A stretch of 62,425 nucleotides of DNA, the filler included, from Stramenopiles sp. TOSAG23-6 (lineage: Eukaryota): assembly GCA_900128565.1 (NCBI GenBank). It is 36 parts of 36 records of this genome, joined end to end, with 100 filler letters (N's around TTAATTAATTAA, not from the genome) between each part and the next. Parts side by side here need not be neighbours in the genome. Positions count along the whole stretch, not along the records: positions 53,907 to 55,532 come from LT638778.1; 35 more parts are not named here. One strand, given 5' to 3'. A model generated the notes under the pieces. That model had not been told where the DNA came from. It worked only from the letters and a program-made list of their open reading frames with translations, and searched no databases. The translations under genes were made by a program, and so were the position numbers. Positions 5,250-62,365 of the stretch are shown piece by piece. Each line of letters opens with the position of its first letter. Positions within the stretch are counted from its first letter, which is position 1.

Positions 5250-6662
5250 GAAGAGGAAAAAGGAAGAGGATCAGAAGTACCAACACCACCAGTACCAACA
5301 CCACCACCAGTACCACCACCACAAGAACCACCACAAGAAGGAAAAGAAGGAAGACGTGAAGCAGCTGAGAAAGCTGCAACAAAAATCCAAGCTTATCAAC
5401 GTGGTCGTCAAGCAAGAGCTACAGTTGCCAAAAGAAACAGCAGCGTTCCTTTCGTTTTGAATGAAAAAGCTACTGGGGAAAATATTATTCTAACTTTGGC
5501 TAATCATGGCCGTGGGGCTTTGCGTATGGTAAGCAGAGCCTTTCAAAACCGTGTGGATGACATTCAAGATCGAATTTTACAGCAGAATCGTATAAAAGCA
5601 AGAGCGATGAGACTGGAAAAGAAATTCTTTGTTGATTATCTCCCGGACGAGTGGATGCAAGAAGTTTATTTTACGCCTCGATCAGCTGCCATAGATAAAG
5701 CTGATCTGGAAGACAACCTTGCCAAAGCGATTGAGGCTTCTCATAACGATTGTCGCGAAAAAGTGAGAAAAATATTAAGTGGTTTAGATCTAAAGCAAAT
5801 ATCATTAAGTGATTACTTTATACTTGCACTAACTAATGAAGGTAAGGTTTATTCATGGTCAAGAATCGGACCATGGCAAAGATCATCCAGAGAACCAATT
5901 GGTCGATCTTCCACAGACGAAAATAAATGTATTCCAATGATTATCGAAGGATTAAGTGACGTGGTGCAAATTTCATCTGCTAGACAACACAGTATTGCGT
6001 TAACAGGGAACGGAAAAGTATTCACTTGGGGTAGAGACGAGGGGCACTACTATGGGAGTCATCAAAAAGGATATATGTTTTACTTTTTTTCAATTTCAAT
6101 TTCGAGTTTTTTTTTTGGTTCTCGTACGAAATTTTGTACCTAACAAAGTTTACAAAGAAAAATATTTGTTCACAATACATACCTTGGTCAATTTAAAACA
6201 TACCCAGCCACAGAATACCGTAGTCAATTTAGTACTCTTCAAAACAATGTTTTTCATCCAACACTTGTGAAAGGAGTAAAGGGAATGTTTATTGTTGAAG
6301 TATATGCTTGGAATTCCACAACTTTACTACGATCAATATCTGGTCAAGTATTTTATTACGGTGATTTTATTGGTCCATTTGTTCCGAATATGTCTCGCCG
6401 AGATGGTAGCAAAGGTGTTGTACCATTGCCATTTCGTGTATTCCAATTTAGGAAAGGACAAAAAGTATTGGCTAAACATGACGACGGGCAATGGTACCCG
6501 GCTACTATTTTATGGGTGGGTATCGGTTATTATGATACAGATTACGAGGTAAAATTTGATGATGAAAAGAAGATACTGGTACCAGGAAGGAGTCGAAGGA
6601 GTGTCGGACAAAATGAGGAATTCATCCGATCAATGAATTCCGAGTCCGACTCTTCCAAATAA
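5250..6662 (+). CDS. RCC1-repeat protein with an IQ-like motif and a C-terminal Tudor-like domain; intron 6073-6180
   Basis: ALTNEGKVYSW, HSIALTGNGKVFTWGR, FRKGQKVLAKHDDGQWYPATI...YEVKFDD. Splicing gives KGY/LGQ in frame. Confidence 0.75.
6073..6180 (+). other. Family intron, AT-AT termini
   Basis: GGA T|ATATGTTTT...GTACCTAAC...CACAATACAT|AC CTT GGT. Confidence 0.75.
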
Positions 6663-6997: not shown

Positions 6998-8645
6998 AAA
7001 TGGATACAGATCACAGTGGTGTAGTTACATGTGACGAATTTATTGAATGGCATTGGGCACACAATCGGAACAGTACAACTGGATCCATTCAAAATGAGGT
7101 GACTAAAGATCTCGATAAGAATAAAAGCTGTTCATATTTCATTCCTGGTCTTTCGAAAAGATATCTTATGAGTAAGTTTTGTGGTGTATCCGTCGAAACA
7201 CAAGGGAAAATGAATGAAGTTGAATTTGGTCTTTTGGTACAAAATATTGCTCTTGATATCGATAATATTGATAATACGAGGAGTTTTGATATGATTTCGT
7301 GTCTTGGTGGAAGGTCTTCTTCTGAGTGTTTTTCAGAGATTGATCGATTATGTCGCGGGTATATACTGTACGTTTCAAAATTAAACGAATTATGTTTTTC
7401 ATACGAAAGTTTGTACCTAATCATTTTTTTACAAAATATATTTTTTTTTACAAAACATGATTGATGACTTTCTTTGGTGGTATCGTCTATATCGTCCTGA
7501 GACACCCGGAGAGATTAAATCACAAGTTAGATTTTTATTTAAGCATATTGATAAGAATAATGTAGGATATTTAACAAAGTCTGGATTTCGAGAATTATCA
7601 GAAAAACTAAATCTTGGACTCACAGATGTCATATCGAGAATAGAACATAAGTTTGATGATACATTCTCCCAAATAGATTTGTGTAAACAAAATCGGGTGT
7701 TCATTGATGATTTACTCCGATGGCATGAAAAATCGTATGAATATTTATATACAAATCGATCAACACCAACAAAGTTTTTATATTCAATATTTAATTGGCT
7801 TTTATCGATTGACCAAGAAACTTCAGAAAGTAAACCAAGTAAAAACAATGAATATTTACATGGATATCTCACAGAGAAACATGTATGGTTTCAAAATTGA
7901 ATTTCGAATTTGTTTTTTTTTGGTAAAAAAATTTCGTACCTAACAAATTTTTTTTATTATAATATTTTTCCAAAATACATCTTGGTTCACTTCTTATATA
8001 TGTAAATGAAACTGTTGAAACATGTTTTAATACAGACGGTGTTATTTTGTGTACAACAATTTCAGATGGTTTTCAACTTATTGATCGAAAACATTGTGGA
8101 AAAATTAGTTTTAGTGATTTCGTGTGGTGGCATAGATTATATCATAAAAATACATCGATTGAAATTGTATTTCAACTTTTATATTTTTTTAATATCGTAG
8201 ATGATACTAATGAACATGTCATTCATAAAGATCAACTGGAAAATTTATTTCATTTTATGAATGAAAAGTTTAAGTATTGTTTTTCTCTGGATGACTGGAA
8301 TCCCCAATGGAAAGATGAATTTATGAATTTATCTAGTATATCAGGTGTGAAATTTCGTGACATTGTTTCTTGGTTGAAACACAAAACACCAAATTTATTT
8401 TCAAATCGTAGAATGAAAATTTGGGATGAAATAAAACATCAATGTACAATGGACGACACGAATTTATATAAAATGCACGAATTACTTGAAAAATCATTGA
8501 TACAAAATATTGTACAGTGTTATGTATGTTTTATTTTTTTTTTAAACAAAAAATCAATTTTTTTTTTATAGTAAATGTTGTACCTAACAAATTTTTTTAG
8601 ATTTTTTTTTTTTGAAATATTTTTCCAAAATACATCCTCTCCAGA
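6998..8645 (+). CDS. Multi-EF-hand protein, partial; GT-AT introns at 7368-7458, 7883-7980 and 8524-8635
   Basis: DTDHSGVVTCDEF, IDKNNVGYLTKSGF and IDRKHCGKISFSDF motifs; the ORFs join in frame after intron removal. Confidence 0.75.
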
Positions 8646-9012: not shown

Positions 9013-10312
9013 CGAAATTATTTAGCAATCAAAGTTCTAGAAAAAATGTTTCCGTATAATTTGTTAATAACAGGAGCCATAGATTTTCAACTACCAAGAA
9101 GATTAAATGTTATTTTTTTACGATTATTTGTATCTCTTTATGTAGACCGGGTACCGCAGCATTCATGTACGTTTTATTTTTTTTTACAAAAAAATCAAAA
9201 AAAAAACATTCGTACGAAATTTTGTACCTAACAAAATATTTTCAATTTTTTTTTTGAAATATTTTTCCAAAATTCATTGCCTCTCCCATTACTTACTAAA
9301 AATGTATATCCATGTACAACAAAAAGTATAGAAAATAATACACAAAATAATACACAAAATAATACACAAAGTATAGAAAATACACAAAATATAGAAAATA
9401 ATCCACTTTTATCAAGTCATGTAAAGACTAATATCAATAATAATATCAATAATAGCAATAGTAGAGAGACAAAATTTATTGGGTTGTCTGGAGGTTTTTT
9501 ATGTACAGAAAACTCAAATAAGTTTGCTTTACTTCAATGCTTTATAGAATATTATTTACTGAATCATCAACAGGTAAAGCATATACAAAAAGATGAAGAG
9601 TCATCAAGTTCATCAAGTACAGAATTAAATACAAAAAGCAATAGTATAAAAGCAATATATCCGGAATATTCAATAAAACTACAGTCTACGAGACAGAATA
9701 AAAACTATACTCCAAATAATGTCTATAATCAAGAATATAATCAAGAATATAATCAAGAATATAATCAAGAATATAATCAAAAATATAATCAAGAATATAA
9801 TCAAAAATATAATCAAGAATATAATAAAAAAGTTGGAAAAGATATCAATAGGGAGTTGCGTCTCGCACTTTCTATACAATCAAAACAAAAATATCATTTA
9901 GAACAAAAAAAAAAAGAATATCACAATCGTCAACGGCGAGAACATAAATATACCAGGGAAATTTGCTATGCATTACACTTATTATTTACATTTGGTTTTT
10001 ATGCAAACCCTAGTCAAGTTTCACGTATTACAAATCCACTCTCCTTACTCGTTCAAGACCAAGACGATAACAGCTGTCACAGAACAACATTCCTGAAATC
10101 ATCGCAATCTAAACGCAATGGATTTGTTGTACAACCATATAATCAAGATAATAATTATAATTCATCGAAACACCAAAAAAACAAAACAAAATGGAGAAAC
10201 GAAAAAACATCGCCGCGCTCCTAGAGTTAGTGTTGGTGGATCAATGTATGAATTATTTCCTGCAAGTACATTAGAAGTTTTGGGGCCAATAGGTATAGAA
10301 GAAGGCTGTCCT
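9013..10312 (+). CDS. Inositol 1,4,5-trisphosphate receptor-like channel fragment; GT-AT intron 9167-9277
   Basis: RNYLAIKVLEKMFPYNLL...LPRRLNVIFLRLFVSLYVDRVPQ parallels the IP3R DRQYLAI...LP..LRASF..L...HVDRDPQ segment; a later LLFTFGFY motif also fits. Confidence 0.7.
9725..9826 (+). repeat. 12-bp coding tandem repeat (TATAATCAARAA, about 8 copies; YNQE/YNQK)
   Basis: Direct inspection. Confidence 0.9.
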
Positions 10313-28014: not shown

Positions 28015-29500
28015 ATTCGCCTTGACAGTTTCATCCACATTAGCCAATCTCTGAGCTGCAGACACCAATACGCGCAGAACTTCTATTCTAGTTCCAATTG
28101 TATGTATTTTGGAAAAATATTTCAAAAAAAGAATCTAAAAAAAATTGTTAGGTACAAAATTTCGTACTAAAAAACAAATTCAAATTTTCAAAAAAATAAA
28201 ACATACATGCTCCGTTGCATAAAACTGAGCAGTTAATTCTCTAGCCATCATCTCAGGTTCTTCTACAGTAATTCCAACAAGTGCCTTACAGCGAATCAAA
28301 TCGAAATTCTCAATGTTGAATCGATTTTCAAGAGTCAAAAGAACTCTACTCAATTCAACAGCCACTTCAGGTAAATGTATTTTGGAAAAATATTTCAAAA
28401 AAAAACTACAATTTGTTAGGTACAAACTTTCGTACGAAAAAAAAATCGATTTTTTTGTTTAAAAAAAAAAAATAAAACATACATCAGCTGGAACAGGAAA
28501 TGTATTCATAAGTTCGTCAAGTGATAATAATGTTGTTTCAGTCTGATCATAATTTTTTTGTTTTTCTGGATCTTGAAGATTGGATAAACAATGCCGTAGA
28601 AATAAAATATTCGTTTTTTTTTTTTTTTTTTTTTCAGTACAATCTACATCATTATTATTCATATCATAAGCTTCAAGACTAGCATCGCTATCATCACTGT
28701 CAAACTCAATAGGAGTATTATATCTCTGTGATGCGGATGAAGAATATTCATCTGTATCTTTTGATGTACACTCATCTCCTGCTAATATAGAATTAACAGC
28801 GGACACATCAATTGTTTCATCTGATTTTTTATCATTATCAAAAGATTTGATTGAATTTGGTGATATATTTTCATCGTCACTTGTAAATATTTCATCTGGG
28901 TTCAATATTCCAATTGCTTCATCTGTATTTTCATCTGATAATGGAGAAAATGAATTGATATCCAAATCAATGTCTCGTTTTTCATTCCTTCTTATCTTTT
29001 GTTGTACAACAGATGTAGAATCTATACCAAATTTCGTACAGCCCATGATAGATGTAGTCATTATTTCTCGGAGCTGTTTCACAAGTGTAGACTCGAATAA
29101 CATTTTTTTATCACTCATTTCTGCTTCAACATCTCGAATATTCTTCAATTCGTCAAACTTGAGCAAATGATTTGGATCTAGAGCAAAAGACATGGCTTCG
29201 GCAACTTTCATACCTATCAATTGAATAGCAGGCCGAGGAGAATCCATACGATTTTGTATACCTTTTAATATTAATGGCATTGATAAAGAGTTCTGAAGAC
29301 CAACCGCACTATGAATATCAACATAGTATTGCATACATAAACTTAAAGATTTTGAAACGCACTGTTGATACCTCTCGTCACCACTATTTGTAAATTCTAA
29401 GCTACTCCATGTTTCAGCAACATGAGTCAAAGTCAAAGCAAGAGATTTTGATGAATACTTCCGTAAGAGATCTACAATATACGAAATACTTTCGACATCA
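28015..29500 (-). CDS. TELO2: Telomere length regulation protein TEL2 fragment; GT-AT introns 28375-28482 and 28102-28206
   Basis: LILKGIQNRMDSPRPAIQLIGMKVAEAMS; LEAYDM; LPEVAVELSRVLLTLENRF...RCKALVGITV. Confidence 0.85.
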
Positions 29501-33131: not shown

Positions 33132-34593
33132 AATAAAAATAAAATACAAAATGAAATGTGTAAAAAAACATTTGAACTTGACCAATTTGATCCTTTATCA
33201 TCATATGCATTCTCAAGACCATTTGAACATGTCAAATTTACACAATATTTATTTACAACGGGTACCGGGTCCACCTGGGCAATTATTAATAAAGATGAAT
33301 TAGAAAATTCTGGATGTCAGGATAAGCAAGTTGAGGTAGGGTTGGGGTTAGGGTTAGGGGAAGAGGGTGATATTACTGGACCTGATGTGTATACATATAA
33401 TATACCAAATACACGAAATATGAAAAATACACGAAATAATGAATTTCCAAAAGCAATTGATATTGAACGAAGTTATCATCGTAATATTCATGGCTATTTA
33501 TTAGGGGGATGTGAAAATGGTACAAATTTAAGTACAAATTTAAAAAAAAATTTTAAAAAAAATTCAAAAAAAAATTCAAAAAAAAATTTAAAAAAAAATT
33601 TAAAAAATGATCAATTTGTAATTTATTTAGATGAATCGATAGAAATTCGACCAGGTGTGTTTAAAAGAGGTAAAGAAATTATATACGCAGAAGGACATTC
33701 AATCATGTACGTGTTTCAATTTCGAATTTATTTATAATATATATAATTTTTTTTTTTTTTTTTTTTTTTTTTTTGGAAGGAAAAAAAATTTTTAATTTTT
33801 TCCTAAATTTTTACTTTTAATTTTTTTTTTTTTTTTTTTCATTATACATTTTACATTTTGAACCATTATTGAACATTCAAAGAAAATAAATGAAAATAAA
33901 ACTCAACAATCAAATCAAAGTCTTTACAATTGAACTCATTTGTCCTTTTTTTTAAATATTTTTTCACATTCTATGAAAGGTTTAAGTACAAAAAAGTTTC
34001 TACTTGAAGATGGATTTAATGTTTGGATTCGAAATGGAAATGCCATTGACGGTTACACAAATCCATTTCAGAAAAACCCTAACCCTAATAATAATGATGA
34101 AAATGATGAAAATAATAATGATGATAATAATGATAATGATAATGATGCTAATAATAATAATAATAATGATGATGATGATAATGATGATGATAATGATGAT
34201 GACTATTCATATGATGAAAAAATTACTGAACTGTTCGATGATAACATCGAGAATACACGAAATATACAAAATAATGATTCTACAAAGAATATTACAATGA
34301 CGATTCAAAGTAATGGTAAAAAAGTTCAATTATTTGTTCCTTCAACAAAAACAGCAGGTATTTTTTTACAATGTTCAAATCAAAAAAAAAAAATTGTAGA
34401 TTTTTTTTTTCTATTTTTTTTTCGTAGTACATTTTGTACCTAACAAAACAACATAAATTTTTTAAAAATATCACAACACATTACAAAAGATGCTGCACAA
34501 GAATTTTGTACTGGTATGAACAAACACGAAATATGTAAAATTGCCATAATAAGAGAAATCAAAAGACTTCGTGAAGAAATGGAAGAGCCCTAA
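33132..34593 (+). CDS. Hypothetical Asn/Asp-rich protein fragment with two family-type introns
   Basis: ATC AT|GTACG...CATTCTAT|G AAA GGT restores frame; the second junction (near 34357) is unresolved. Confidence 0.5.
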
Positions 34594-36503: not shown

Positions 36504-36705
36504 NNNNNNNNNNNNNNNNNNNNNNNNNNNNNNNNNNNNNNNNNNNNTTAATTAATTAANNNNNNNNNNNNNNNNNNNNNNNNNNNNNNNNNNNNNNNNN
36601 NNNAATGTATGTTTTATTTTTTTTCAAATTCGAGTTTTTTTTCATACGAAATTTTGTACCTAACAAATTTTAGTTTTTTTTTTGAAATATTGTTCCAAAA
36701 TACTT

Positions 36706-40069: not shown

Positions 40070-41075
40070 GTAAGACTACAAATCATCGGGTAAGTAAATG
40101 CCACAAAAAGTACCAAAATCTTTGTTCCATTTTGTCTTGTCATGATTTTTGGAATAATAAGATGGATAATCAAAACACATAGAAGAAGAAACCATGGTGC
40201 ACAATTTAAGATAATAAATTGTTGAGGTAATGTTAGTCTAATGACACATGTAGTGTGAAAAATATTTCAAAAAAAATCATGAAAAAAAAAATCGTTAGGT
40301 ACAAAATTACGTACGAAAAAAAAAATTAGATAAAAAATTAAAAATAGTACAACAAACATGACAATGTCATAGATCCAAACTTCCCAAAAGATCCAACACT
40401 TAGATATCCGAAAAAATCAAAGAACTGGTAATACAAGTCTAATAACGTTTTTGTTACCACATATATTTTGGAAAAATATTTCAAAAAATTTTTTTTCCGT
40501 AAAAAAAAAAAAATTTTTTGGGAAAAAATTTTTTTTTTTCGTAAAAAAAAAAAAAAAAATGTAGACAATTTTTCCAAAAAAAAAAAAAAAAGTAAAACAT
40601 ATATTTGTTGTACTGATTCCAAAATTAACATCTGATAATGTTTTTGCTTGTGAATATTGAAAAACTATTTTAAAAATAACAGCGAAATTTTCATAAAAGT
40701 CTTTCAAAATCCACTTTCCATGAATTCGATTAATTGTTTTGTTTCTATCCTCCGACATTTCATTTATTATTTTCATGTATTTTGGAAAAATATTTCAAAA
40801 AATTTTTACGAAAAAAAAAATTTGTTAGGTACAAAAATTTTTTACCAAAAAAAAAAAAAAAAATAAATAAAATATACATAATTTTTCGTGCTTTCCATCT
40901 GTAAATTCCAACAATTACGGACAAGACTAACAAAACAATAATTGAAAAAATAATTAATCCTATCTTGATGTTCTCTTCTGATTCACAATCATAACACACT
41001 CCCCAATGTATATACATATCTGGAAAAAACACTTTGTTACCAAGCTTACAGAGATGACACAATGTATTGTGAAAA

Positions 41076-41115
<40 letters not shown>

Positions 41116-41701
41116 AAATTTTTGAAACAAAAATTTTTTTTTTTTCGAAAAATTTTTTATTTTTTTTTTTGTAATTCATGATGCAAACGTACATGGCCCC
41201 TCATAGTTTTCATGACACATTGTCCATACGTTTACCATATTTTTTATTTGTTTTTCATCTTCCATCAGTGTTTCTTTAACGGTAGGGTTTTTGTCTCTTT
41301 CTTCCATTACATTTTGAACATTTTGAACATTTTGTTTGTGGGTGGGTTCTTTAGGGTTAGGGTTGGGTTCTAATAATTTCCTAGATGGATTAGGGTTAGG
41401 ATTTTGTAGATTCTGTGTGAGATTACACCCCAAGCCACGATTTTCTAATGTTTGACACCTAATTAATGATAAAACTTGTATTGGTTCTGTGGGAGATGTA
41501 CTTGATATTTCTTTATCAAATTCAATATATGGTTTTCTATTTAGACTGTCATCAAGTAAAGACTTTCGTATAGATTCTAATTGCCAATGTTCGGAATCGA
41601 TTTGCATATGAATTAATTCTGTTCTTTCATTTTCACATAATGCACCCTCTGGACATCGTATACATCGAACACCCAAATTAAGGGAGTTGTATTCATCATT
41701 G
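40070..41701 (-). CDS. Cys-rich multi-pass membrane protein fragment; family introns 41062-41192, 40775-40877, 40461-40602 and 40248-40357
   Basis: CIRCPEGALC, MCHENYEGP/LCHLC, then TM helices and KIVFQYSQ; all four junctions restore frame. Confidence 0.7.
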
Positions 41702-41885: not shown

Positions 41886-42910
41886 AAGTCGATCACCAGT
41901 GAGAGAATCAGCACCACATTGAAGAACTATTGCTCCAGGGGCGTATCGATCCATAATAACTTGAATGACTGGACGAAAAACTGACACAAATGTTTCATCA
42001 TCCATACCATCTTTTAACGGGAAATTGACAGAATATCCCTTACCATCAGCATAACCAAAATCTTTGACATCACCAGTCCCAGGGAAATAATCACCAAATT
42101 TATGAAAGGAGCAGGTCATGTAATTTGGAAAAANNNNNNNNNNNNNNNNNNNNNNNNNNNNNNNNNNNNNNNNNNNNTCAAGAATGGCCAATACACAATC
42201 ATTGACATAACAAAATCCTGAGGCTTCACTTTTTTTTGCGTGATGTAAACCCCCAGCCCAATTTACACAAATGTCAGATCGTTCACTATTTAGTCTTATA
42301 GCACCTCCAATAGAACCAGAAGTATAAATCTGACAAAACTCAAAGAGACCATCAAATACAGGACAATCTTCTCCAACATTAAACCGTTGCAATTGTCGTA
42401 AATACTCCCCTGCAGTGTATAAAAATAGAAAAAAGAAGATTCAAGTTAAAAACAGGAATTTCACGACAAATGGGTAATAGTATTGAAGAAGAATACTTTT
42501 TATGAAATTGATGTAATCATCCGAGTGAAAAGTTGTCATTTGACTTGGCGTCGCAAGCTGTGGGCGGAAGACTTCCATCTTTTTATATAGTCCGTAATTT
42601 ACTACTAGATTGTGAGTCATTCGTACACGATGTGGCTTCATAGGATGACCTCTGTATTTTGGAATATAAACAAAACAAGGTTTAGACTGAGTATACATAA
42701 AATCAATTCAAAATAAAATTTTGGTGGACATGATTGAGGGGAAAAAGAAAAGCTACACTCCATTTCAGTGAAGCGGTAAAAAGAATACATCTCTGAAGAA
42801 TGTTTTGCATATATAACGTACTGACCATAATGAAAGTTTCCTACATCACAATCAAAAAAGTATGACACACGGCGTTTCGATCTGTTTGTACCATAATCTA
42901 TTCCACTCAT
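41886..42910 (-). CDS. HDAC1: Class I histone deacetylase (RPD3/HDAC1-like); GT-AG introns 42652-42821 and 42410-42496
   Basis: [68 protein letters not shown]. Confidence 0.95.
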
Positions 42911-43585: not shown

Positions 43586-45138
43586 GCTTCCAAAACCACT
43601 TGTGATTAGATCAACTTCAAAGTTACAGCTTCAAGCGAAGGATGAGAATTCTTTGTTTTCTGTAACAATTACTGATATTTTTAATTCTCCAGTTGAAAAA
43701 TGCCGAGTTACTTTGTATGTTTTCATCATGAATTTTTTTTTTCATACAAAATTTTGTACCTAACAAAATTTTTTTTTTTTTTTTAAATTTATATTTTTTT
43801 ACAATACTGGAGTGCATTTCGCGTGAAGGAATATTTACTCGAAGAAGTTCCCATGTCTTTGAAAGGTAATTCAAAATCTGTGTACGAATACAATTTCTTG
43901 TCTGCTAATCCAGATATTGGGTTATTCGATCTTGATATAAAAATCACACCATTAGATGAAGACAGTCCTATTATTGTGCCACGTGTCATTATGTACGTTT
44001 TCATCCTTCATTGTACATTTTAAAATGTATTTTTAAAATGTATTTTTAAAATTTTTTTTTTAAATGTATTTTTAAAATGTATTTTTAAAATGTATTTTTA
44101 AAATGTATTTTCAATTTCGATTTTGTTGTACTGTGAAAATTTTTCTTCCTCACGAGTTTTCGAATTTGGTGTAATTCTTTATGATGCATGATTACAACTT
44201 CAGTATCGGTAGAAGAAGTTACTATTTGGGTGGATCGAACCGAGACTTCAAGATATGTACGTTTTCATTATTTTTTTTGCCTTTTTTTTTTTTTCGTACG
44301 ACATTTTGTACCTAAGAACAAAAATCTTGTACTATTTTTTCACAATACATCCTTCTGGTAAAGATAAAAAGATTACAGCATTGTCTCCAAATGCAGTCGA
44401 TTCAGTGTTGAATGTAGACATAAATGAAGTTTTGCATGTCATGTTTGAACCTCTTTCTGCAACAAGTGGTGATACAATAAATCCACATCAAGCATTTCTT
44501 AAAATTCAACACAAGGCATCGAATGTTGATACAATTTTTGTGGCTGTGGCGAATGAAGTTGATGGGAAATACACTATTTCTTGCCCTATTAATGATATTG
44601 ACGCTTGGAAGTCGACTTCAGGTCTTCATTCTTTGACACTCTACATCGGAGATCCGAAATTGAATCAATTTTTCGAATGGCAATTTGCTAAAGTTAACTT
44701 GACATTACAAGAAAAAGTTGTACCAGAATTGTGTACGTTTTCAAAATTGAATTTCGAATTTATTTATTTTTTCGTAAAAACAATTTTGTGTCTAACAAAT
44801 GTCGAATGTAAAATATACTTTCACAAAATATCCTTATATACGAGATCTCTTCTTCATGTACGTTTTCATTATTCATTTCAAATTTATTTATTTTTTTTCA
44901 TACGAAATTTTCTAAGTAAGAAATTGAATTGTTTTTTTGAGTTTTTATTCGATACGTTTTTCATTATTCATTTTTTATTTATATTTGTTTTTGTATTTTT
45001 TATTCTTATAATTTTATTTTTTGTATTTATTAAAAGTTGTATCAAAATTACAAAACTAACAAATTTTATTATAGAAACATATTTTGTACAAAATATCATA
45101 CAGACACAACCCTTATCGCCCTTCCTGAAATTAGTCAT
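43586..45138 (+). CDS. RPN2: Oligosaccharyltransferase subunit ribophorin II fragment, six exons separated by family introns
   Basis: PHQAFLKIQH, SGLHSLTLYIGD, LYTRSLLH/TDTTLIALPEISH. Introns 43715-43809, 43993-44189, 44257-44350, 44733-44831, 44858-45096. Confidence 0.85.
43715..43809 (+). other. Family intron, GT-TG termini
   Basis: ACT TT|GTATG...CAATACTG|G AGT GCA is the in-register, frame-restoring junction. Confidence 0.65.
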
Positions 45139-48773: not shown

Positions 48774-48925
48774 ATGCCCACATCATTCCAAGTAATGGCA
48801 ATGCATCCGGAATGAGTCGAAATAGAGTGCGAAAAATTGACTGAAACCGATGAAACGAAAATACAACAAAGTATTTTGAAAAAATATTTTACATTTGAAA
48901 TTCGTTAGGTACAAAAAATATTTTG

Positions 48926-48956
<31 letters not shown>

Positions 48957-50261
48957 AATTTAAAAAATTCATGATGAAAAATGTACCGTCCAAATCGAGC
49001 AAGCCGTAAGACTAAAATAAACTGCAAATATCGTTGAGCAGAATCACCTTCTCCGTTTTTTTTCACATCGAGAAAAACAACAACAGCAATGAATTGCATA
49101 AAGCATACATGTATTGTAAAAAAAATTAAATTCGAAATTTGTTAGGTACAAAATTTTTATAAAAAACTAAAAAATTAAAAAAAAAAAATAAATTTGAAAT
49201 TCATAATGAAAACGTACGATGAAGTCTACAACATTTGCTCTGCTAGCAAAATATTTATGAAATCCAAGGACAGAATTCTTCAAAACCATTTCTACAATGT
49301 AAACAAGACAAAATGACAATTCAATAGCTGCAGAACTAAAATTAACATCTTGGTCTAATTCAAGAATTACAAACGTCGCATTTAGTAGAACAACCGTTAC
49401 CATGTATTTTGGAAAAATATTTCAAAATATTTTTTTCCGTAAAAAAAAAAAATTGTTAGGTACAAAATTTTTTTACCAAAAAAAAAAAAAATGTAGACAA
49501 AAAATTGAAAAAAAATAAAACATACATAATAGCTTCGAAAATCCAATGAAGGACAATAAAGCGTAGGAACCTTCTAGTACTTTGACACGGTGACCACAAA
49601 TCTGTCACAGCGGTATCAAGATCCATTAAAACACGAGATATATTATGAAAAATATTTTTTTTTTTTTTTTTTTTTACGAAAAAAAAAAAAATTGTTAGGT
49701 ACAGAATTTCCTATAAAAAAATATATAATTTGAAATTCATGATGAAAACGTACATGCACGATTCATATTTCTAATTGTTGTATATCTTTGGGTATTCGCA
49801 AATTGACTATAATCACTACTATTAGTATTTGTTACATCAGATGAATTTTTAAAATTTTTAGAATTTTCATCATATGAATTTTTAGAATTTTTAGAATTTT
49901 CATCATATGAATTTTTAAAATTTTTAGAATTTTCATCAGATGAATTTTTAGAAATTGTTTGATATGGTGGGATGTATAATCCATTTCTTCTTTCTTCATT
50001 GTATTTACGATTTCTCCTATTTTTATTTGTTTTGGTTCGATGAAAGCATTCCTCAATACAAAATACAAATTCATCAAACGATACGTAATGCTTTTGAGAC
50101 AATGACGAAACAGTATAACATTTATCATTTAATACATTTTTGCTTTCAAGATGGTTTTCATTTGTTTGTATATTTGATGAATATTTCATATTTATCATTT
50201 TGGTGTGTAAAATATCAAGAATAAATTTCTCTGGAGCTAAAATATTTGCATCTGCAGCTAC
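48774..50261 (-). CDS. Two-pore channel (TPC)-like fragment; family introns 49638-49753, 49402-49525, 49109-49217 and 48869-48986
   Basis: VYIVEMVLKNSVLGFHKYFASRANVVDFIV; FILVLRLARFGRVV; degenerate EF-hand VSFDEFV upstream. Confidence 0.8.
48869..48986 (-). other. Family intron, GT-TT termini
   Basis: GGA CG|GTACAT...AAAATACTT|T GTT GTA gives the S4 sequence RLARFGRVV. Confidence 0.75.
49109..49217 (-). other. Family intron, GT-AT termini
   Basis: GAC TTC ATC|GTACG...CAATACAT|GTA TGC gives DFIVC. Confidence 0.85.
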
Positions 50262-52080: not shown

Positions 52081-52319
52081 NNNNNNNNNNNNNNNNNNNN
52101 NNNNNNNNNNNNNNNNNNNNNNNNTTAATTAATTAANNNNNNNNNNNNNNNNNNNNNNNNNNNNNNNNNNNNNNNNNNNNAAAAAGAACTACAATCTCTC
52201 TAGTCAAAATCTAACTTTTAAAATATGTTCAAAATTGAATTTCAAATTTATATTTTTTTTTTCGTACGCATTTTTGTAACTAACAATTTTTTACTATTTT
52301 TTTTTTTTTCACAATACAT

Positions 52320-54273: not shown

Positions 54274-55481
54274 ATGGTAAATGAGACCCACCGCCATCGT
54301 TCTGGTACTCAAAAGCAGAAAAATAAGACACACAAGCGAAGTAATATTAGTAAGCGTGCTTTGAAAAGATCAGCTCCAGGTCGTATTGAAGCGCCGACTA
54401 AGCGCATTTCAATTAAAGCTGGCGAAAAAGTCAATAATGCAAAAAGAAAAAAGAACCGGGCCAAGCAGCTGAAGCAGCAAAAATTGGACCGATTACGTTC
54501 TCAGCGCCGCCTTGGTGGAGGTTCTAACGCACCAAAGGTTGTTTCTATACTACCATTAGCAGAAGGTGTCGATATTAATTCAATAGTGTCTGGTTTAACC
54601 GGAAGCACCGGGACAACTCCTAGTTGTTCTCCTCTTGGACATGCGACGGTCGAGTCTCGTAAGCTCAAGCAACGCTTTACATTTATACCGACTATGCGTA
54701 GCGTTCCGGGCGTACTAGATGCTGCTAAAGTAGCTGATGTTATTGTAGTTGTTCTCCCAGCACAGCATGGACAAGAGCACTGCATTGATGAGTTAGGTGA
54801 TGCTTGTATTTCTGCCTTGAGAGCTCAAGGTCTTCCAGCAGTGATATGTTTGACTACTGGTTTAAAGCAACTTCCACCAAAGCGCGCCCCAGAGATGCGT
54901 AAATATGCAAAGCGACTTTTTACAACTGAGTTTGGCGATTCAGTAAAAGTTCTTGATGATGGGAACTATTTCCACGTACTAAGGGCCTTAAGTGACGTTC
55001 GATTGAAGGAATTGAAATGGCGAAATTTGAGACCATATATTGTTGCTGATTCTTACAATCTATCAGAAGGTTCAAACAACGATTCATCAAATTTGGTGAA
55101 TCTTCAAGTGAAAGGTTACCTTCGAGGATCGGCATTATCACCAAACCAATTGGTTCATATCACAGACGTTGGAACATTTCCGTTACAAACTATGTATGTT
55201 TTATTTTTTTTCAATTTCGATTTTTTTTTTCGTACGAAATGTTGTACCTAACAAATTTTAGTTTTTTTTTTTTTAAATATTTTCCAAAATACATTTCTGG
55301 TACTTCTGATCCCTGTAAAACAAAAAGGTCAAAAATATTGGATGAAGAAAAACTTCTTTTGACTTCTGATCCTTCTATTGTAAATGAAGATTTCATGCGC
55401 TCCGAGGTGATGCCGACAGATGATTGTTGTGAACAAACCTGGCCAACCCAAGAGGAAATGGCGGTAGCTAGAATGGAGTAT
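54274..55481 (+). CDS. TSR1: Pre-rRNA processing protein TSR1, 5' part; GT-AT intron 55194-55294
   Basis: HRHRSGTQKQKNKTHK; LDAAKVADV; LRAQGLP; WRNLRPY; GYLRG...NQLVHITDVGTF; EQTWPTQEEM. Confidence 0.95.
55194..55294 (+). other. Consensus-like family intron, GT-AT termini
   Basis: ACT AT|GTATGTTTT...CGTACGAAATGTTGTACCTAAC...TCCAAAATACAT|T TCT GGT. Confidence 0.9.
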
Positions 55482-55686
55482 GTATGTTTTATTTTTTTTT
55501 TTTAACAAAAAAATCGAATTTATTTTTCGTACNNNNNNNNNNNNNNNNNNNNNNNNNNNNNNNNNNNNNNNNNNNNTTAATTAATTAANNNNNNNNNNNN
55601 NNNNNNNNNNNNNNNNNNNNNNNNNNNNNNNNGTACGAAATTTTGTACCTAACGATTTTTTTTTGAAATATTTTTCCAAAATACAT

Positions 55687-57419: not shown

Positions 57420-58144
57420 TCTTTTTTTTTGGGGGGGGGGGGAACCTACTCCTCCAGTAAAAGGTAAATCCGTTGGTAGCCCAAGTACGATCGATCCGTC
57501 AATGTGACGTCCGTCTACATGTATTTTGTAAAAATATTTCAAAAAAATTTTCGTAAAAAAAAAATTTGTTAGGTACAAAATTTCGTACGAAAAAAATAAA
57601 TTCGATTTTTTTTTTACCGGAAAAAAAAAAAAATAAAACACACACCTAAGAAGGGAATGCCTATTGGCCCATATTCACGATCACTAAATGTACCATATCC
57701 AGGAGTATTGTAATCTTTGAAACCACCTCCATAGTCAGAGCCTTTGACATGGATTATGAAAAAATATTTCAAAAAATTTTCTATAAAAAAAAAAATTGTT
57801 AGGTACAAAATTTCGTACGAAAAAAAAAATTCGAATTTGAAAAAATATAAAACATACATACATTTGCTCCCAATTGGTAAACTCTGGTCGGAAATTTTGT
57901 GGTGAACTTTTTCTTTGGTTTGCTTTTGATGTTGAATCAACACTTTGTTCTTTTATGGCTTTTATGGCTTTTGTGGCTTTTATGGATGTAGAGACAGTTG
58001 TATCTGATTTTTTTTTCTTGATTTTGAATGCATTATTCCGAAGCGCCAAAGCATGAACACTTGACGTTTGGTGTAAGACATTGAAAGAATGAAAGTAATA
58101 TGAAATTGTAATAATATGAAATAAAAATGAACTGGTCATAGTCA
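57420..58144 (-). CDS. Predicted secreted hypothetical protein; family introns 57749-57857 and 57519-57643
   Basis: Exons join in frame: WEQMY/VKGSDYGGG...PFLG/VDGRHIDGS. Confidence 0.6.
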
Positions 58145-58981: not shown

Positions 58982-59132
58982 NNNNNNNNNNNNNNNNNNN
59001 NNNNNNNNNNNNNNNNNNNNNNNNNTTAATTAATTAANNNNNNNNNNNNNNNNNNNNNNNNNNNNNNNNNNNNNNNNNNNNTGAAAATTTTGTACCTAAC
59101 AAATTTCGAATTTAATTTTTTTTACAATACAT

Positions 59133-60618
59133 GTGATCCTGCTTTTCAAAGGTATTATACTGATGATAATGCACGTGTATGTCTTAATTTTTTTTCAAAT
59201 TGTTTTTTTTTTCGTACGAAAGTTCGTACCTAACAAATTTTAGTTTTTTTTTTTTGAAATATTTTTCCAAAATACGTTCACTTCTAGCTGGATTAGCAAC
59301 TCGGTCACTTTTGCGTAACTCGGCATGGGACTCTATCATTGTAAGTGCTGTACTAGCTAATTTGCGTATGGCTGGTCCAAGTGGCTTTGCAGATGGATCA
59401 CTAATGTTTAGTGATATTGCAAAAAGTGGTTGGGAGGCACGATCTGCAAAGGATCACAAGAATATTAAGAGTGTATATTCACCACACTACCAATCTTACA
59501 TTTGGGCTGTTTTCCTTCGAATGTATAAAATAACTGGATACAAACCTCTTTTAGAAAAGGCCAAAAATGCCATTTCAAATATGATGGACAAGTACCCTGA
59601 ATGGTGGCAAAGTACGAGCAATGGTATCACAATGCAACGGGCACGAATGATTTTGCCACTTGCATGGTTAGTCATGGTAGAAGACACACCGGAGCATCGG
59701 CAGTGGCTTGATGTAATTACTCAGGGTTTGCTTGAAAGACAAGATATAAAAACGGGTGCGATTCGTGAGGAAATAAGTGGTAAAGGTTGGGGGTCCAGTG
59801 CACGTGTACCAAACAACACAAATTACGGTACATTTGAAGCACCGCTTAACCAGTCAAATGAAGATCCAGTAAGCGATCTTTTGTATGTTTTATTTTTTTT
59901 CAAATTCGAATTTATTTATTTTTTTATAAAAATTTTGTACCTAACGAATTTTTTTTTGAAATATTTTTACAAAATACATGTACACAACAAACTTTGCTTT
60001 TCTTGGTCTTCATGAAGCAGTACATGTATGTTTTAAAAATTGATTTTTTTGGTCTAAACATTTTTTTATAGGATTTTTTTTTTACAAAGAAAAAAATGTA
60101 TATTTTTGTACCACTAATGCTGTTGGTCCAACAACTGAAATGGGAAAACGATATATGGCAGCTGAGGATCGTCTGGCAAATTTGCTAGTTCGTGCACAGG
60201 TTACCAGTGGTGCTGTTTGGTCCAATGAGGATACAGACACGACAGATTGGGAACACACTGAGCTAAATGGGGCATGTATGTTTTCATCATGAATTTATTA
60301 TTTTTTTTTCGTACGAAATTTCGTACCTAACAAAACAAATTACAAAAAAAAATATTTTTTCACAATAAATGGTTTCGTGCCTTTGATTTTGAAAAGTGGG
60401 AATATTGGGCTTCTGATAGTGATATTGGTTGGGGGGCATGTACATTTTCATAATGGATTGAAAATTAATTTATTTTTGTACCAAATTTTGTACTTCTGAA
60501 AAAAAATCGAATTTGACATATTTTTTCATAAAACATGGTCTATTGAGACAGGTTGGACACAAGCATGGATTAGCTCTGTATTTGCCATGCGTCAACTAAA
60601 TCAGAGTTTGTGGGACAT
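59133..60618 (+). CDS. Six-hairpin glycosidase-like protein; family introns 59177-59277, 59883-59979, 60026-60118, 60276-60370 and 60440-60536
   Basis: Spliced product: YTDDNARSLLA...ERQD...NYGTFEAPL...DPVSDLLYTTNFAFLGLHEA...LNGAWFRAFDFEKWEYWASDSDIGWGAWSIETGWTQAWI. Confidence 0.75.
59177..59277 (+). other. Family intron, GT-GT termini with GT repeated at both junctions
   Basis: GCA CGT|GTATGT...CAAAATACGT|TCA CTT. Confidence 0.75.
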
Positions 60619-60861: not shown

Positions 60862-60897
<36 letters not shown>

Positions 60898-60989: not shown

Positions 60990-62365
60990 ATATTCTTTCC
61001 GTCTACCTATAAATTTTTTCATATTATTCCATGACCAAGAATATTTTAGTGCATTTTTATAGTTTTGATGAAAATCATTATTTTTATTAAAATCACCAGT
61101 AGTAGATTGAGATACATTTGGAATTTGTGTCTTTGACGATTTCATGAGTTGTTTTTGAGCTATACTGTATTGTACAAAAATATTTTTTTTTTTTGAGATT
61201 TTTAATTTTTTTTCGTTAGGTACAAAATTTCCTACAAAACAAAAAATTAAAATTTTGAAATATATATTTTTTTTTTAAATGTTTTTTGTTAGGTACAAAA
61301 TTTACTACAAAAAAAAAATTGAAATTTTGAAAACATATATACATCGACAAGCATGAATCCACCAAAGCTTTGGTAGTTGAGATATTGATATATTTGGCCG
61401 ATGCTCCCGACACGATTCTACAACACGAAATATGCGTATTGCATTTTCAAGTGCTATGACGTCATCGTATTGTCTCTGATGAAAGTGTACATTCATATTT
61501 TCAAAATTAGCTTTAATTTGTAATTTAGGAAAATTTAAATTCATTTTATCATTTAATGCTATATGAGCTTCAACAGAGATAGGAAGTAAAATATGATGAG
61601 AAAATTTTGATTTTTTTGATTTTTTTGTTTTTTTTGTTTTTTTTGATATTTTTGATATTTTTGTTTTTTTTGTTGTTTTGGTTGGACTAGGGTTAGGGTT
61701 TGTAGATGATGTTTCTTCATAAATCATTTTCAAGAGTTTTTCGTGTCGTGTCTCTCTACAATTTTCTTTTGATATCAATTTCACCATCGTCGATTTCCAA
61801 TACAGTGAAACATCAGATAGACGTCCAAACTTGAAAACTCTCGTTTCATGTATTACAAAACATATTTGAAATATTTAAAAATTGTTAGGTACAAAATTTC
61901 GTACGAAAAAAAAAATTTAAATTAAAAAAAAAATTTTTGAAATGTTTTTTTTGAAATGTTTTTTTTGAAATGTTTTTTTTGAAATGTTTTTTTTGAAAAT
62001 GTTTTTTTTGAAATTTTTGAAAACGTATATTTTTATTCGACTCTATTGATTCATCATGAAATATAGTCTCATCATCTGCATTTACTGTTTTTATACTACA
62101 ATATTTGAGAGTTAAACCAACAGCAAAATTATTTTTATTTGAATATTCATCTTCATATCGAATAAATTTTGGGAAAATATTTCAAATTTTTTTTTTACAT
62201 TTTTGTTACAATCGATTTTTTTTTGTTTTACTATACAAATTTCGTATTTAAAAAAAAAAANTTAAAACCTTTGGTACAAAATTTCGTATTTAAAAAAATT
62301 ATACATTCCAAATTGAAATAAAGTATGANAACGTACATGTGAAGATTACAAATGTCTATTTGAAT
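60990..62365 (-). CDS. VPS13: VPS13 N-terminal (chorein) region; family introns 62162-62336, 61848-62028 and 61165-61338
   Basis: IQIDICNLHI/RYED; FAVGLTL; SLYW; QRQYDD; LWWIHA; WSWNNM...RRKEY. Confidence 0.9.

What the first reader, a model, noticed from the sequence alone, without database searches (positions are those of the whole stretch)
55192..55294. Transposon hallmarks: terminal inverted repeats and a 2-nt target duplication that supplies the acceptor
Seen: the ends ATGTAT(G)TTTT and AAAATACAT are near-perfect reverse complements. The core GTAT...ATAC is flanked by the same dinucleotide, AT/AT in most copies and GT/GT at 59175-59277. Established: Introners in Micromonas and Aureococcus are non-autonomous DNA transposons that co-opt the target-site duplication as a splice site. 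Inference: a MITE targeting AT sites becomes a frame-neutral intron because one duplicated copy is spliced out as the 3' dinucleotide. Alternatives are a TG...CA element inserted at A^T without duplication, or an AT|GT...AT| proto-splice site analogous to AG|GT...AG|. No transposase is visible in this window.
Basis: partly seen in the sequence, partly recalled or inferred. Interest (0 to 1): 0.82.

Follow-up and report, generated by a model that had tools for sequence, protein, structure and literature searches.

The report
Repeated introns ending in AT
This stretch is one copy of a much-repeated, nearly identical intron in an uncultured marine protist that is cut out at GT...AT instead of the usual GT...AG, and the "transposon footprints" at its ends are real as sequence but too invariant to prove how it spreads.

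Summary
Window = 36 short eukaryotic contigs joined by linkers. 55194-55294 is a 101-nt intron in a Tsr1-like gene, and one of 36 curated complete copies (34 window, 2 in L030) of a stereotyped family: GTAYGT donor, CGTACGAAA..GTACCTAAC box, T-run..AAAATAC block plus two bases.

Reading frames require removal of core+2 nt. 24 of 27 informative introns pass. The other 3 are settled by a stop-free 333-aa spliced ORF and by a polyA-RNA contig lacking exactly 97+93 nt. That contig and a channel S4 motif show the 5' flank is kept and the 3' dinucleotide removed, so the intron is GT..AT, not AT..AC.

24/36 copies are AT/AT and one is GT/GT, but 11/36 are discordant. Non-AT exact matches number 1 against 0.27 expected (p=0.24). 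The universal inverted repeat is only GTA/TAC. No transposase was found.

A 2-nt target duplication is therefore possible (~0.3) but unproven. The terminal base is only T or G (34/34), which suggests a selected acceptor. Verdict: an introner-like family with a non-AG acceptor, a new variant of a known kind.

The parts
55192..55193 (+). exon-side AT (last two bases of the upstream Tsr1-like exon)
   Evidence: the Pfam AARP2CN/Tsr1 match of the upstream ORF ends at this junction
55194..55294 (+). the intron of the finding, 101 nt, GT..AT, phase 2
   Evidence: frames L319/R69 join only with this end (where the margin fell below my 'informative' cut-off); family member
55194..55199 (+). donor GTATGT
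   Evidence: G+1 32/34, T+2 34/34
55228..55239 (+). palindromic box TTTCGTACGAAA; its GUACGA can pair with the UUGUAC that overlaps the branch box
55245..55252 (+). branch-site-like box TACCTAAC (invariant in the 14 aligned copies)
55275..55292 (+). conserved 3' block AAATATTTTCCAAAATAC
55293..55294 (+). terminal AT of the intron (the acceptor dinucleotide)
55482..55532 (+). 5' part of a second copy, cut by the contig end (flank AT)
59177..59277 (+). the GT/GT copy, phase 0
59883..59979 (+). copy with flanks TT/AT; its removal is seen in RNA
   Evidence: record 28
60026..60118 (+). copy AT/AT without the standard branch box; its removal is seen in RNA
   Evidence: record 28
60276..60370 (+). 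copy AT/AT (..CACAATAA AT)
60440..60536 (+). copy AT/AT (donor GTACAT)
6073..6180 (+). copy with donor ATATGT, AT/AT
7368..7458 (+). copy CT/AT
7883..7980 (+). copy AT/AT
8524..8635 (+). copy AT/AT (right frame not testable because the contig ends)
8894..9010 (+). copy AT/AT; end set with the help of the frame
9167..9277 (+). copy AT/AT (..AAAATTC AT)
33707..33974 (+). long copy AT/AT; end chosen from the frame-compatible list
36607..36705 (+). copy AT/TT (left frame not testable because the contig starts here)
43715..43809 (+). copy TT/TG (contig present 3 times, counted once)
44257..44350 (+). copy AT/AT
61165..61338 (-). composite copy with two branch boxes, donor ATATGT, AT/AG
57749..57857 (-). 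copy AT/AT
57519..57643 (-). copy GT/AT (donor GTGTGT)
49638..49753 (-). copy AT/AT (..ATAATAT AT)
49402..49525 (-). copy AT/AT
49109..49217 (-). copy TC/AT in an ion-channel gene
48869..48986 (-). copy CG/TT in the same channel gene; S4 keeps its Arg only if CG is kept
40775..40877 (-). copy AT/AT
40248..40357 (-). copy AT/AT (donor GTTTGT)
41062..41192 (-). copy AT/AT
42652..42821 (-). copy CA/AG (family 3' block followed by AG)
28375..28482 (-). copy AT/AT
28102..28206 (-). copy AT/AT
20435..20525 (-). copy AT/AT
17044..17148 (-). copy AT/AT (donor GTAAGT)
16461..16659 (-). composite copy AG/AT; end set with the help of the frame
16285..16381 (-). copy AT/AT
15948..16193 (-). long copy AT/AT; end chosen from the frame-compatible list

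Best explanation
The stretch is one copy of a high-copy, stereotyped spliceosomal-type intron family (an introner-like element) in an AT-rich, uncultured marine protist.

Each copy carries its own splicing signals:
- a yeast-like donor GTAYGT;
- a CGTACGAAA..GTACCTAAC branch box;
- a T-run;
- a conserved ..(C/A)AAATAC block followed by two bases, usually AT.

The RNA is cut at |GTAYGT ... (C)AT|, so these are GU-AU introns. The exon-side dinucleotide stays in the mRNA and the 3' dinucleotide leaves with the intron.

What is shown: the repeat family, the frame-neutral excision of core+2, which dinucleotide is removed, and the non-AG acceptor.

What is inferred: excision is by a U2-type spliceosome whose acceptor recognition tolerates or prefers A-U, with the last base a keto base (U much more often than G). 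The copies spread by insertion into (Y)AT|G sites.

My split on the origin of the terminal AT:
- about 0.45: it belongs to the element's acceptor signal, and the exon-side AT is a target or proto-splice preference, by DNA insertion or reverse splicing;
- the rest goes to other schemes.
For: Repeat family.
- The box GTACCTAAC.. occurs 41 times against 0.49 expected.
- 14 copies align over their whole length, with subfamily-specific spacers and indels. These are the AAATTCGA type, the AAACAAAAAAATCGA type and the GGTAAAAAAA type.
- The best pairwise identity is 0.75-0.85 for 12 copies.
- 28 of 72 contig ends lie within 110 nt of a family motif, against 0.18 for internal controls.
- Intron segments reach summed depths of 1e4-1e5 in a seawater DNA run, where the exons have 9-13. 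The tool warns that this is not a copy number.

Excision.
- 24 of 27 informative introns join long ORFs only with the core+2 end. Four of those ends were set using the frame, so 20 of 23 are independent tests.
- All six exons of contig 59082-60703 give one 333-aa ORF without a stop.
- A polyA-RNA contig (X8 record 28, no mismatches) joins 59833-59881 to 60117-60161 with 45 letters between them. The genomic gap is 235 nt, and 235-45 = 190 = 97+93.
- A DNA contig of run X3 (record 3) runs unspliced from the exon across the donor of intron 59883, and another (record 6) from inside intron 60026 across its acceptor into the next exon.

Which dinucleotide is removed.
- The T at 59881 is kept in the RNA contig.
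- The channel gene keeps R-x-x-R-x-x-R in S4 and DFIV in S3 only if the 5' flanks CG and TC are kept.

Acceptor under selection.
- The last base is T in 30 and G in 4 of 34, never A or C.
- Positions -9 to -1 are 79-94% conserved across all copies.

Intron phases are 8/8/8. The host genes are ordinary and unrelated: Tsr1, COPA, anoctamin, TELO2, Kelch-BTB, RCC1, ribophorin II and an ion channel.
Against: - Only one RNA contig, from a metatranscriptome at depth 5.3, shows splicing. It spans two introns, so it gives their sum plus one retained base.
- One family-like intron (minus strand, donor at 418) needs 140 or 143 nt removed, not 142.
- Two copies have the donor ATATGT.
- Two ends (8894, 16659) do not lie at motif-C+2 but 2 nt away, though both still end in AT.
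- The closest copies are only about 85% identical, so the family is not very young. No empty site or presence/absence allele was seen.
- Mobility is inferred from family structure only.
- There is a modest excess of flank agreement (p=0.015 and 0.01), which a pure 'element carries AT' model explains only through age heterogeneity among copies.
Confidence: 0.8

Rival explanations
1. A non-autonomous inverted-repeat DNA transposon (core GTAT..ATAC) inserts at AT, rarely at other dinucleotides. It duplicates the 2-nt target, and the spliceosome removes the core plus the 3' copy.
For: - The core+2 excision rule holds whatever the 3' dinucleotide is: AT, TT, GT, TG or AG.
- There is a perfect GT/GT in one of the least diverged copies.
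- Non-AT flanks co-occur: 5 copies observed, against about 2 expected by my arithmetic from the counts.
- Exact matches are 23 against 19.3 expected (p=0.015), and -2 against the penultimate base gives p=0.01.
- With 15-25% divergence between copies, one or two flank changes per copy are expected.
- There is a precedent: Fritillaria borealis has AG-AC and AG-AT introns preceded by exonic TAC, and Micromonas has a 3-nt duplication (PMC11282704, passages).
Against: - Only 1 of the 12 copies that are not AT/AT matches exactly. Non-AT exact matches give p=0.24.
- For the 7 non-AT acceptors I count 6 of 14 positional matches against about 5.4 expected (my arithmetic).
- The last base is only T or G, and the acceptor dinucleotide is as conserved as the neighbouring block. 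A neutral duplicate should also decay to A or C.
- The inverted repeat is 3-4 nt family-wide and does not covary.
- No transposase, no long copy, and no intergenic or antisense copy is in the window.
Confidence: 0.3
2. There is no mobility. The lineage has changed its splice consensus from AG to AU at both the exon end and the intron end, and the introns look alike only because long signal blocks are under selection.
For: - The exon junction consensus (C/T)AT|G and the intron end CAT|G mirror the canonical MAG|G and YAG|G with G changed to T.
- AG acceptors still occur in 3 of 34 copies.
Against: - Similarity extends through spacers, with shared subfamily indels.
- Contig breaks are enriched at copies, and the intron segments have very high summed depth.
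- Phases are uniform at 8/8/8.
- There are 7 introns in a single 1.6-kb contig.
Confidence: 0.08
3. A TG..CA element (TGTATG..ATACA) is inserted between A and T without any duplication.
For: It gives the same mRNA for every AT/AT copy. The RNA contig cannot separate a cut after 59881 from a cut after 59882.
Against: - It makes GTATGT start at intron position +2, which no known spliceosome uses (general knowledge).
- The GT/GT, TT/TG and CG/TT copies would need changed element termini.
Confidence: 0.07
4. This is a non-spliceosomal, euglenid-type nonconventional intron, excised through a stable pairing of its two ends.
For: The ends AUGUAU and AUACAU pair in the minimum-energy fold of the 2 AT/AT subfamily-1 copies folded; the GT/GT copy pairs only the inner 4 bp GUAU/AUAC.
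Against: - Folding energies are no better than shuffles, with z from +0.96 to -1.56 for 6 copies. The other subfamily shows no end pairing.
- The donor is near-perfect, and a UACUAAC-like box and a T-run are present.
Confidence: 0.03
5. This is an ordinary GT-AG intron that uses the TTTTAG lying 9 nt after the branch box, with the rest being coding sequence.
For: In the finding's own copy the 33 nt after that AG happen to be in frame and open (read by eye).
Against: - In the GT/GT copy the same choice gives a stop or the wrong frame (by eye).
- Many copies have no AG there.
- The whole-contig ORF and the RNA contig need the AT end.
Confidence: 0.01

Closest known systems
Introners of Micromonas pusilla and Aureococcus anophagefferens (Huff et al. 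2016 recalled; summarised in PMC11282704 and PMC9860276, passages read)
   Same: Many near-identical short introns sit in unrelated genes. Their excision is frame-neutral. They carry part or all of their own splice signals. They have short terminal repeats and a short direct repeat at the junctions.
   Different: Those use GT/GC-AG boundaries. Their duplications are 3 nt or longer with locus-specific sequence, and their terminal repeats are clear. Here the acceptor is AT, the direct repeat is an almost invariant dinucleotide, and the inverted repeat is 3-6 nt.
Non-canonical introns of the tunicate Fritillaria borealis (Henriet et al. 2019, as described in PMC11282704, passages; abstracts of PMC13326754 and 10.1101/2025.08.15.670264 seen in the listing)
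   Same: The acceptors are non-AG (AC or AT) and are thought to come from a duplicated exonic trinucleotide of a small transposon. They are removed by an adapted U2-type spliceosome.
   Different: There the donor is also non-canonical (AG-AC, AG-AT) and the termini are diverse. Here the donor is a near-perfect GTAYGT, a strong branch box is present, and one boundary type dominates.
Introner elements among the non-canonical introns of Amoebophrya (PMC7789003, passages)
   Same: It is a marine protist. The introns are repeated, have non-canonical ends, inverted repeats at the two ends and short direct repeats across the junctions, and no transposase is linked to them.
   Different: Amoebophrya has 8-20-nt inverted repeats, 3-5-nt variable direct repeats and no dominant boundary dinucleotides. 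Here there is no significant hairpin and the boundaries are uniform.
Introner-like elements of ascomycete fungi (as summarised in PMC9860276, passages)
   Same: The intron family carries donor, branch and acceptor signals of its own, without clear duplications or terminal repeats. Reverse splicing has been proposed as the way it spreads.
   Different: The fungal elements have GT-AG boundaries.
Nonconventional introns of euglenids and hemistasiid or marine diplonemids (PMC12621601 sections 3 and 5 read; PMC6221363 passages)
   Same: They have non-GT-AG boundaries and short direct repeats at the junctions, and a transposon origin has been suspected.
   Different: Those lack a U1-type donor and a branch box, and they depend on strong end pairing. 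One protein of this window finds stramenopile and plant relatives among its named hits and no euglenozoan.

Membership tests
Introner / introner-like element | many copies of one sequence family that sit as introns in unrelated genes | tested here: met
   36 curated copies in genes of unrelated function; whole-length alignment with subfamilies
Introner / introner-like element | precise, frame-neutral removal from mRNA | tested here: met
   frame test 24 of 27; stop-free 333-aa spliced ORF; one RNA contig lacking 97+93 nt
Introner / introner-like element | recent gain: presence/absence between strains, or lineage-specific positions | not testable with these tools
   no genome, no relatives' gene structures; the only read-laying run showed no intron-less DNA contig in the rows shown
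MITE / terminal-inverted-repeat DNA transposon | terminal inverted repeats of about 10 nt or more shared by the family | tested here: not met
   only GTA/TAC is family-wide; 6-10 nt (with flank and bulge) in one subfamily only; GTAC donors (11 of 34) have no compensating base at -6
MITE / terminal-inverted-repeat DNA transposon | target-site duplication of fixed length whose sequence is locus-specific | tested here: inconclusive
   24/36 AT/AT, 1 GT/GT, 11 discordant; p=0.015 for all exact matches, p=0.24 for non-AT exact matches
MITE / terminal-inverted-repeat DNA transposon | autonomous partner with the same ends that encodes a transposase | tested here: not met
   no transposase, integrase or reverse-transcriptase domain in 53 ORFs of 130 aa or more; this covers only 62 kb of the genome
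U2-type (major) spliceosomal intron | GT donor with extended consensus, branch site and pyrimidine tract | tested here: met
   G+1 32/34, T+2 34/34, GTAYGT; TACCTAAC invariant in 14 aligned copies; T-run
U2-type (major) spliceosomal intron | AG acceptor | tested here: not met
   AG in 3 of 34, AT in 27 of 34
U12-type (AT-AC) intron | donor /RTATCCTT, a branch box 10-20 nt from the acceptor, A..C termini (features recalled) | tested here: not met
   donor GTATGT; the box lies about 35-50 nt from the 3' end; the RNA contig keeps the 5' flank, so the intron does not start two bases upstream
Euglenid-type nonconventional intron | stable secondary structure joining the ends; no U1-type donor | tested here: not met
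   z-scores +0.96 to -1.56 for 6 copies; canonical donor

The most novel reading that the evidence does not exclude
GU-AU is the major intron class of this protist. Its spliceosome has shifted the recognition of both the exon end and the intron end from AG to AU. One possible route is a changed 5' arm of U1 snRNA, which in fission yeast was reported to pair with both (recalled, not checked), and/or changes in U2AF or second-step factors. This shift let an element with a perfect donor and branch box colonise thousands of (Y)AT|G sites. The acceptor's last base is read as a keto base (U or G) opposite G+1.
Probability: 0.25. Interest if true: 0.85.

Novelty: new variant of a known kind. Interest (0 to 1): 0.68.

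Why it matters
Introner families are the best current explanation for bursts of intron gain. How a new insert obtains a usable acceptor is the key step in that process. Here a family keeps a textbook donor and branch box but is cut at a non-AG acceptor (CAU|), apparently as the rule and not the exception.

If that holds genome-wide, two things follow:
- The organism is a natural system for asking how a U2-type spliceosome picks its 3' site without AG.
- Surveys that accept only AG or AC acceptors (method text of PMC12130899, passages) and gene callers will miss both such families and the genes they interrupt in uncultured plankton.

The case also shows the limit of the "flanking repeat = target duplication" argument when the repeat is invariant.

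Tried and rejected
- **Own genome.** None is held.
- **Collection scans for more copies.** Metagenome contigs gave 36 loci, of which only L030 is a true relative. Genome contigs gave 8 chance hits in bacteria. Viral contigs gave 0 hits twice. The flank statistics therefore rest on 34-36 copies.
- **Rfam.** No match on the whole window, so no snRNA gene is available to inspect.
- **Read laying.** Only contig 59082-60703 could be laid.
- **Joints.** The rows listed connect different intron copies. I read them as repeat-induced and used none of them.
- **Automatic (donor, acceptor) enumeration.** The ORF-continuity approach was too permissive in T/A-rich introns. I replaced it with motif-anchored ends plus a frame test.
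- **Introns left out of the counts because their 3' end is ambiguous:** 34358 (may be AG|GT..AG), 43993, 37816, the 846 region and 418.
- **Unpaired ends, not frame-tested and not counted.** 12 further 3' ends without a resolved 5' end all read AT at motif+2. 9 further 5' ends read AT (8) or CT (1).
- **Lineage.** The protein atlas was uninformative. COPA homologues with names are a stramenopile, oomycetes, plants, green algae and a haptophyte, so the lineage is not established. I first considered a diplonemid origin because of the literature on their non-canonical introns and dropped it.
- **Papers.** Gawryluk et al. 2016 is not held. Supplements were not consulted.
- **Earlier scan notes.** Nothing relevant.
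- **Literature on GT-AT.** The listings of two searches showed no paper that describes GT-AT as a dominant intron type. The introner searches listed none for a comparable organism. This is weak evidence that it is not in print.
Full report
**What the window is.** The 62,425 bases are 36 contigs of about 1.6 kb, sorted by length. They are joined by runs of N around the linker TTAATTAATTAA (35 linkers). G+C is 23-38%. No whole genome is held.
- The DNA is found at high word share in coded single-organism runs and in seawater metagenomes. It is found at lower share in seawater metatranscriptomes.
- The ORFs encode ordinary eukaryotic proteins: Kelch-BTB, anoctamin, coatomer alpha, TELO2, Tsr1, a primase-type domain, AP-4 epsilon, RCC1 repeats, ribophorin II, VPS13 and an ion channel.
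- The named homologues of the coatomer fragment are a stramenopile, oomycetes, plants, green algae and a haptophyte, at 32-38% identity.
- I therefore treat the source as an uncultured marine protist of unsettled lineage.

**The observation.**
The ends ATGTAT(G)TTTT and AAAATACAT are reverse complements apart from one bulged G.
- The stretch interrupts a Tsr1-like ORF. The Pfam AARP2CN match stops at the junction.
- The upstream frame (319 open codons) and the downstream frame (69 codons) join only if 101 nt are removed, that is the core GTAT..ATAC plus two bases.
- The copy at 59175-59277 is flanked GT/GT and obeys the same rule.

**It is a repeat family.**
- The box GTACCTAACAAATTT (up to 2 mismatches) occurs 41 times against 0.49 expected.
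- nhmmer with the single copy finds 45 local matches.
- I curated 36 complete copies: 34 in the window, counting the triplicated contig once, and 2 in L030. L030 is the only true relative found in the public collections.
- Fourteen copies align over their whole length. The blocks are ATGTATGTTTTATTTTTTTT, a spacer, TTTCGTACGAAATTTTGTACCTAAC, a T-run and GAAATATTTTTCCAAAATACAT.
- The spacers define subfamilies with shared indels: the AAATTCGA type, the AAACAAAAAAATCGA type and the GGTAAAAAAA type. This points to copying from common ancestors rather than convergence on splice signals.
- A second group has GTACGTTTTCATCATGAATTT.. and ..TTTTTCACAATACAT.
- The best pairwise identities are 0.75-0.85 for 12 copies and lower for the rest. 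The family is therefore not very young.
- Contig ends lie within 110 nt of a family motif in 28 of 72 cases, against 0.18 for internal controls.
- In a seawater DNA run the intron segments have summed depths of 1e4-1e5, against 9-13 for the exons. This is suggestive of very many copies, but the tool warns it is not a copy number.

**The introns are removed, and the 3' end is not AG.**
- Frame test. For each intron I asked which of three 3' ends (curated, -1, -2) joins the longest open frames. Of 27 informative introns, 24 pick the curated end.
- Four of those ends (8894, 16659, 33707, 16193) had been set with the help of the frame. The independent count is therefore 20 of 23, where chance is one in three.
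- The three misses (59883, 60026, 60276) lie in contig 59082-60703. Its exons of 46-69 nt defeat the run-length criterion. Splicing all five complete introns of that contig at the curated ends gives one 333-aa ORF without a stop.
- RNA. In a polyA metatranscriptome, one contig (X8 record 28, 165 nt, no mismatches) covers 59833-59881 and 60117-60161 with 45 letters between. The genomic gap is 235 nt, and 235-45 = 190 = 97+93, the two curated introns.
- A DNA contig of run X3 (record 3) runs unspliced from the exon across the donor of intron 59883, and another (record 6) from inside intron 60026 across its acceptor into the next exon.
- The internal TTTTAG of subfamily 1 is not the acceptor. It fails the frame in the GT/GT copy and is absent from many copies.

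**Which dinucleotide leaves.**
- For AT/AT copies the three registers (AT..AC, TG..CA, GT..AT) give the same mRNA. Discordant copies decide the question.
- Intron 59883 has TT on the exon side and AT at its end. The RNA contig matches through 59881, so it keeps T where an AT..AC-type cut would put A.
- In the ion-channel gene, the exon before the tested junctions matches Pfam Ion_trans positions 6-81. Keeping the exon-side CG and TC gives the S4 pattern R-x-x-R-x-x-R and a hydrophobic DFIV in S3. Keeping the 3' dinucleotides instead gives F and N at those places. The S4 rule is established knowledge that I recalled.
- So the introns run from GTAYGT to the second base after ..ATAC: they are GT..AT. 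In single copies they are GT..TT, GT..GT, GT..TG and GT..AG.

**The signals (34 copies).**
- Donor: G+1 in 32 copies (A in 2), T+2 in 34, A+3 in 31, Y+4 in 33, G+5 in 29, T+6 in 33, followed by T's.
- Acceptor block, positions -9 to -1: A, A/C, A, A, T, A, C, A, T, at 79-94% conservation (the A/C position is split 18/13).
- The last base is T in 30 and G in 4, never A or C. The penultimate base is A in 30.
- Exon side: -3 is C or T in 24, -2 is A in 26, -1 is T in 29. The first base of the downstream exon is G in 14 (41%, against 16% G in the window).
- The junctions therefore read (Y)AT|GTAYGT ... CAT|G. This is the canonical MAG|GT..YAG|G with T in place of the G before each cut.
- Phases are 8/8/8.
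- Folding of six copies shows no structure better than shuffles, with z from +0.96 to -1.56. The end pairing AUGUAU/AUACAU appears only in subfamily 1.
- A small hairpin, GUACGA/UUGUAC, overlaps the branch box.

**Are the 'transposon hallmarks' more than chance?**
- Inverted repeat. Only GTA/TAC is shared by all copies. 11 of 34 donors read GTAC, and no copy has the compensating G at -6. Subfamily 2 has no extension. I do not accept this as a transposase-type terminal repeat, although a 4-6-nt complementarity at the consensus level is unlikely to be pure chance.
- Direct repeat, counts. 24 of 36 copies are AT/AT, 1 is GT/GT and 11 are discordant.
- Direct repeat, permutation of the 3' dinucleotides among 34 copies. 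All exact matches: 23 against 19.3 expected, p=0.015. Non-AT exact matches: 1 against 0.27, p=0.24. Position -2 against the penultimate base: p=0.01. Position -1 against the last base: p=0.25.
- The excess comes from non-AT flanks co-occurring in the same copies. There are 5 of them, against about 2 expected (my arithmetic from the counts). Four of the five are diverged copies, so age heterogeneity is an alternative cause.
- Over the 7 copies with non-AT acceptors I count 6 of 14 positional matches, against about 5.4 expected from the flank frequencies (my arithmetic).
- As the introner survey itself states, an across-intron invariant flank cannot separate a duplication from an insertion-site preference (PMC9860276, passages).
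- With 15-25% divergence between copies, decay of a true duplication in a quarter of the copies is also expected.
- My conclusion is that the data neither establish nor exclude a 2-nt duplication. The restriction of the last base to T or G, and the block-like conservation of -2/-1, favour a selected acceptor signal.

**Mechanism, with odds.**
- Shown: a repeated intron family, cut at GU..AU, with the exon-side dinucleotide retained.
- Inferred, about 0.8: a U2-type spliceosome does this, using the donor and the TACCTAAC box and an acceptor read as A plus a keto base in the context of the ..AAAUAC block. The copies spread by insertion into (Y)AT|G sites.
- Origin of the terminal AT: part of the element, about 0.45; a 2-nt target duplication, about 0.3; other schemes take the rest.
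- No transposase, integrase or reverse transcriptase lies in the 53 ORFs of 130 aa or more that I scanned. No antisense or clearly intergenic copy was seen. The one contig with copies on both strands carries two convergent ORFs.

**Comparison with what is known.**
- The family works like an introner. It meets the features I could test: many copies, unrelated genes, precise removal.
- It fails the AG-acceptor feature of ordinary U2-type introns. It also fails the terminal-repeat and transposase features of a MITE within this window.
- The nearest precedents for non-AG acceptors tied to small mobile elements are Fritillaria borealis (AG-AC and AG-AT, exonic TAC; PMC11282704) and Amoebophrya (PMC7789003).
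- Euglenid and hemistasiid nonconventional introns differ in lacking a donor and branch box and in needing strong end pairing (PMC12621601 sections 3 and 5; PMC6221363).
- The listings of two searches showed no paper reporting GT-AT as a dominant class.
- The large introner survey states that it accepted AG and AC acceptors and discarded unfamiliar ones without transcript support (PMC12130899). A family like this one in an unannotated assembly would therefore be missed.
- I could not read Gawryluk et al. 2016 or any supplements.

**Open points.**
- One family-like intron (minus strand, donor at 418, with a CCCTAA insert) needs 140 or 143 nt removed, not 142.
- Two copies carry ATATGT donors.
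- Intron 34358 may be AG|GT..AG.
- The RNA support is a single contig.

Noticed in passing
window 43533-45162, 45263-46892, 46993-48622: The same 1630-nt contig (a ribophorin II-like gene with three family introns) is present three times, letter for letter.
   Followed up: yes
window 6073-6078 (+) and 61333-61338 (-): Two family copies have ATATGT instead of GTATGT as donor, yet their frames still require the usual excision. Either A at +1 is tolerated or these are errors or dead copies.
   Followed up: partly
window about 277-418 (-): A family-like intron with an AACCCTAACCCTAA insert right after the donor. The flanking ORFs require removal of 140 or 143 nt, not the 142 nt that the rule predicts.
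   Followed up: partly
window 37620-37640 (-), 39860-39890 (+); L030 2270-2330: Telomere-like CCCTAA/TTAGGG repeats, some as inverted pairs, lie inside introns or between genes. They may be a second small repeat family.
   Followed up: no
window 61165-61338 (-), 16461-16659 (-), 37330-37500 (+), 60880-60989 (-): Composite introns with two or three tandem copies of the CGTAC..GTACCTAAC box. These are either internal duplications or copies inserted next to each other.
   Followed up: no
window 55228-55239 and the same block in most copies: TTTCGTACGAAA is a perfect 12-nt palindrome. Its GUACGA half pairs with the UUGUAC that overlaps the branch box (a 6-bp hairpin in 5 of the 6 folds).
   Followed up: partly
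window 34358-34489 (+): This intron has the family branch box, but its frame-compatible ends include ..TACAAAAG| and not ..ACACAT|. It is possibly a canonical AG|GT..AG member.
   Followed up: partly
window 59192-59301, 59852-60016, 60292-60346, 60622-60703: Intron-family segments have very high summed depth in polyA and total RNA metatranscriptome contigs as well (up to 3.5e4), while the neighbouring exons have almost none. The cause could be unspliced RNA, excised introns or DNA carry-over; it was not resolved.
   Followed up: no
window 9232-10221 (+), 10540-11724 (-), 52284-53357 (+): Coding regions carry long low-complexity repeats (NQEY, QNNQNK and DDQIDDD runs).
   Followed up: no
L003-L033 (most JAABU* loci): The chance hits of the metagenome scan include a repeated about 150-nt AT-rich element (..TACGAAACCTAGTACCTAACGAAAACGG..) present on about 20 long contigs of one assembly series. 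It is unrelated to the intron family.
   Followed up: no
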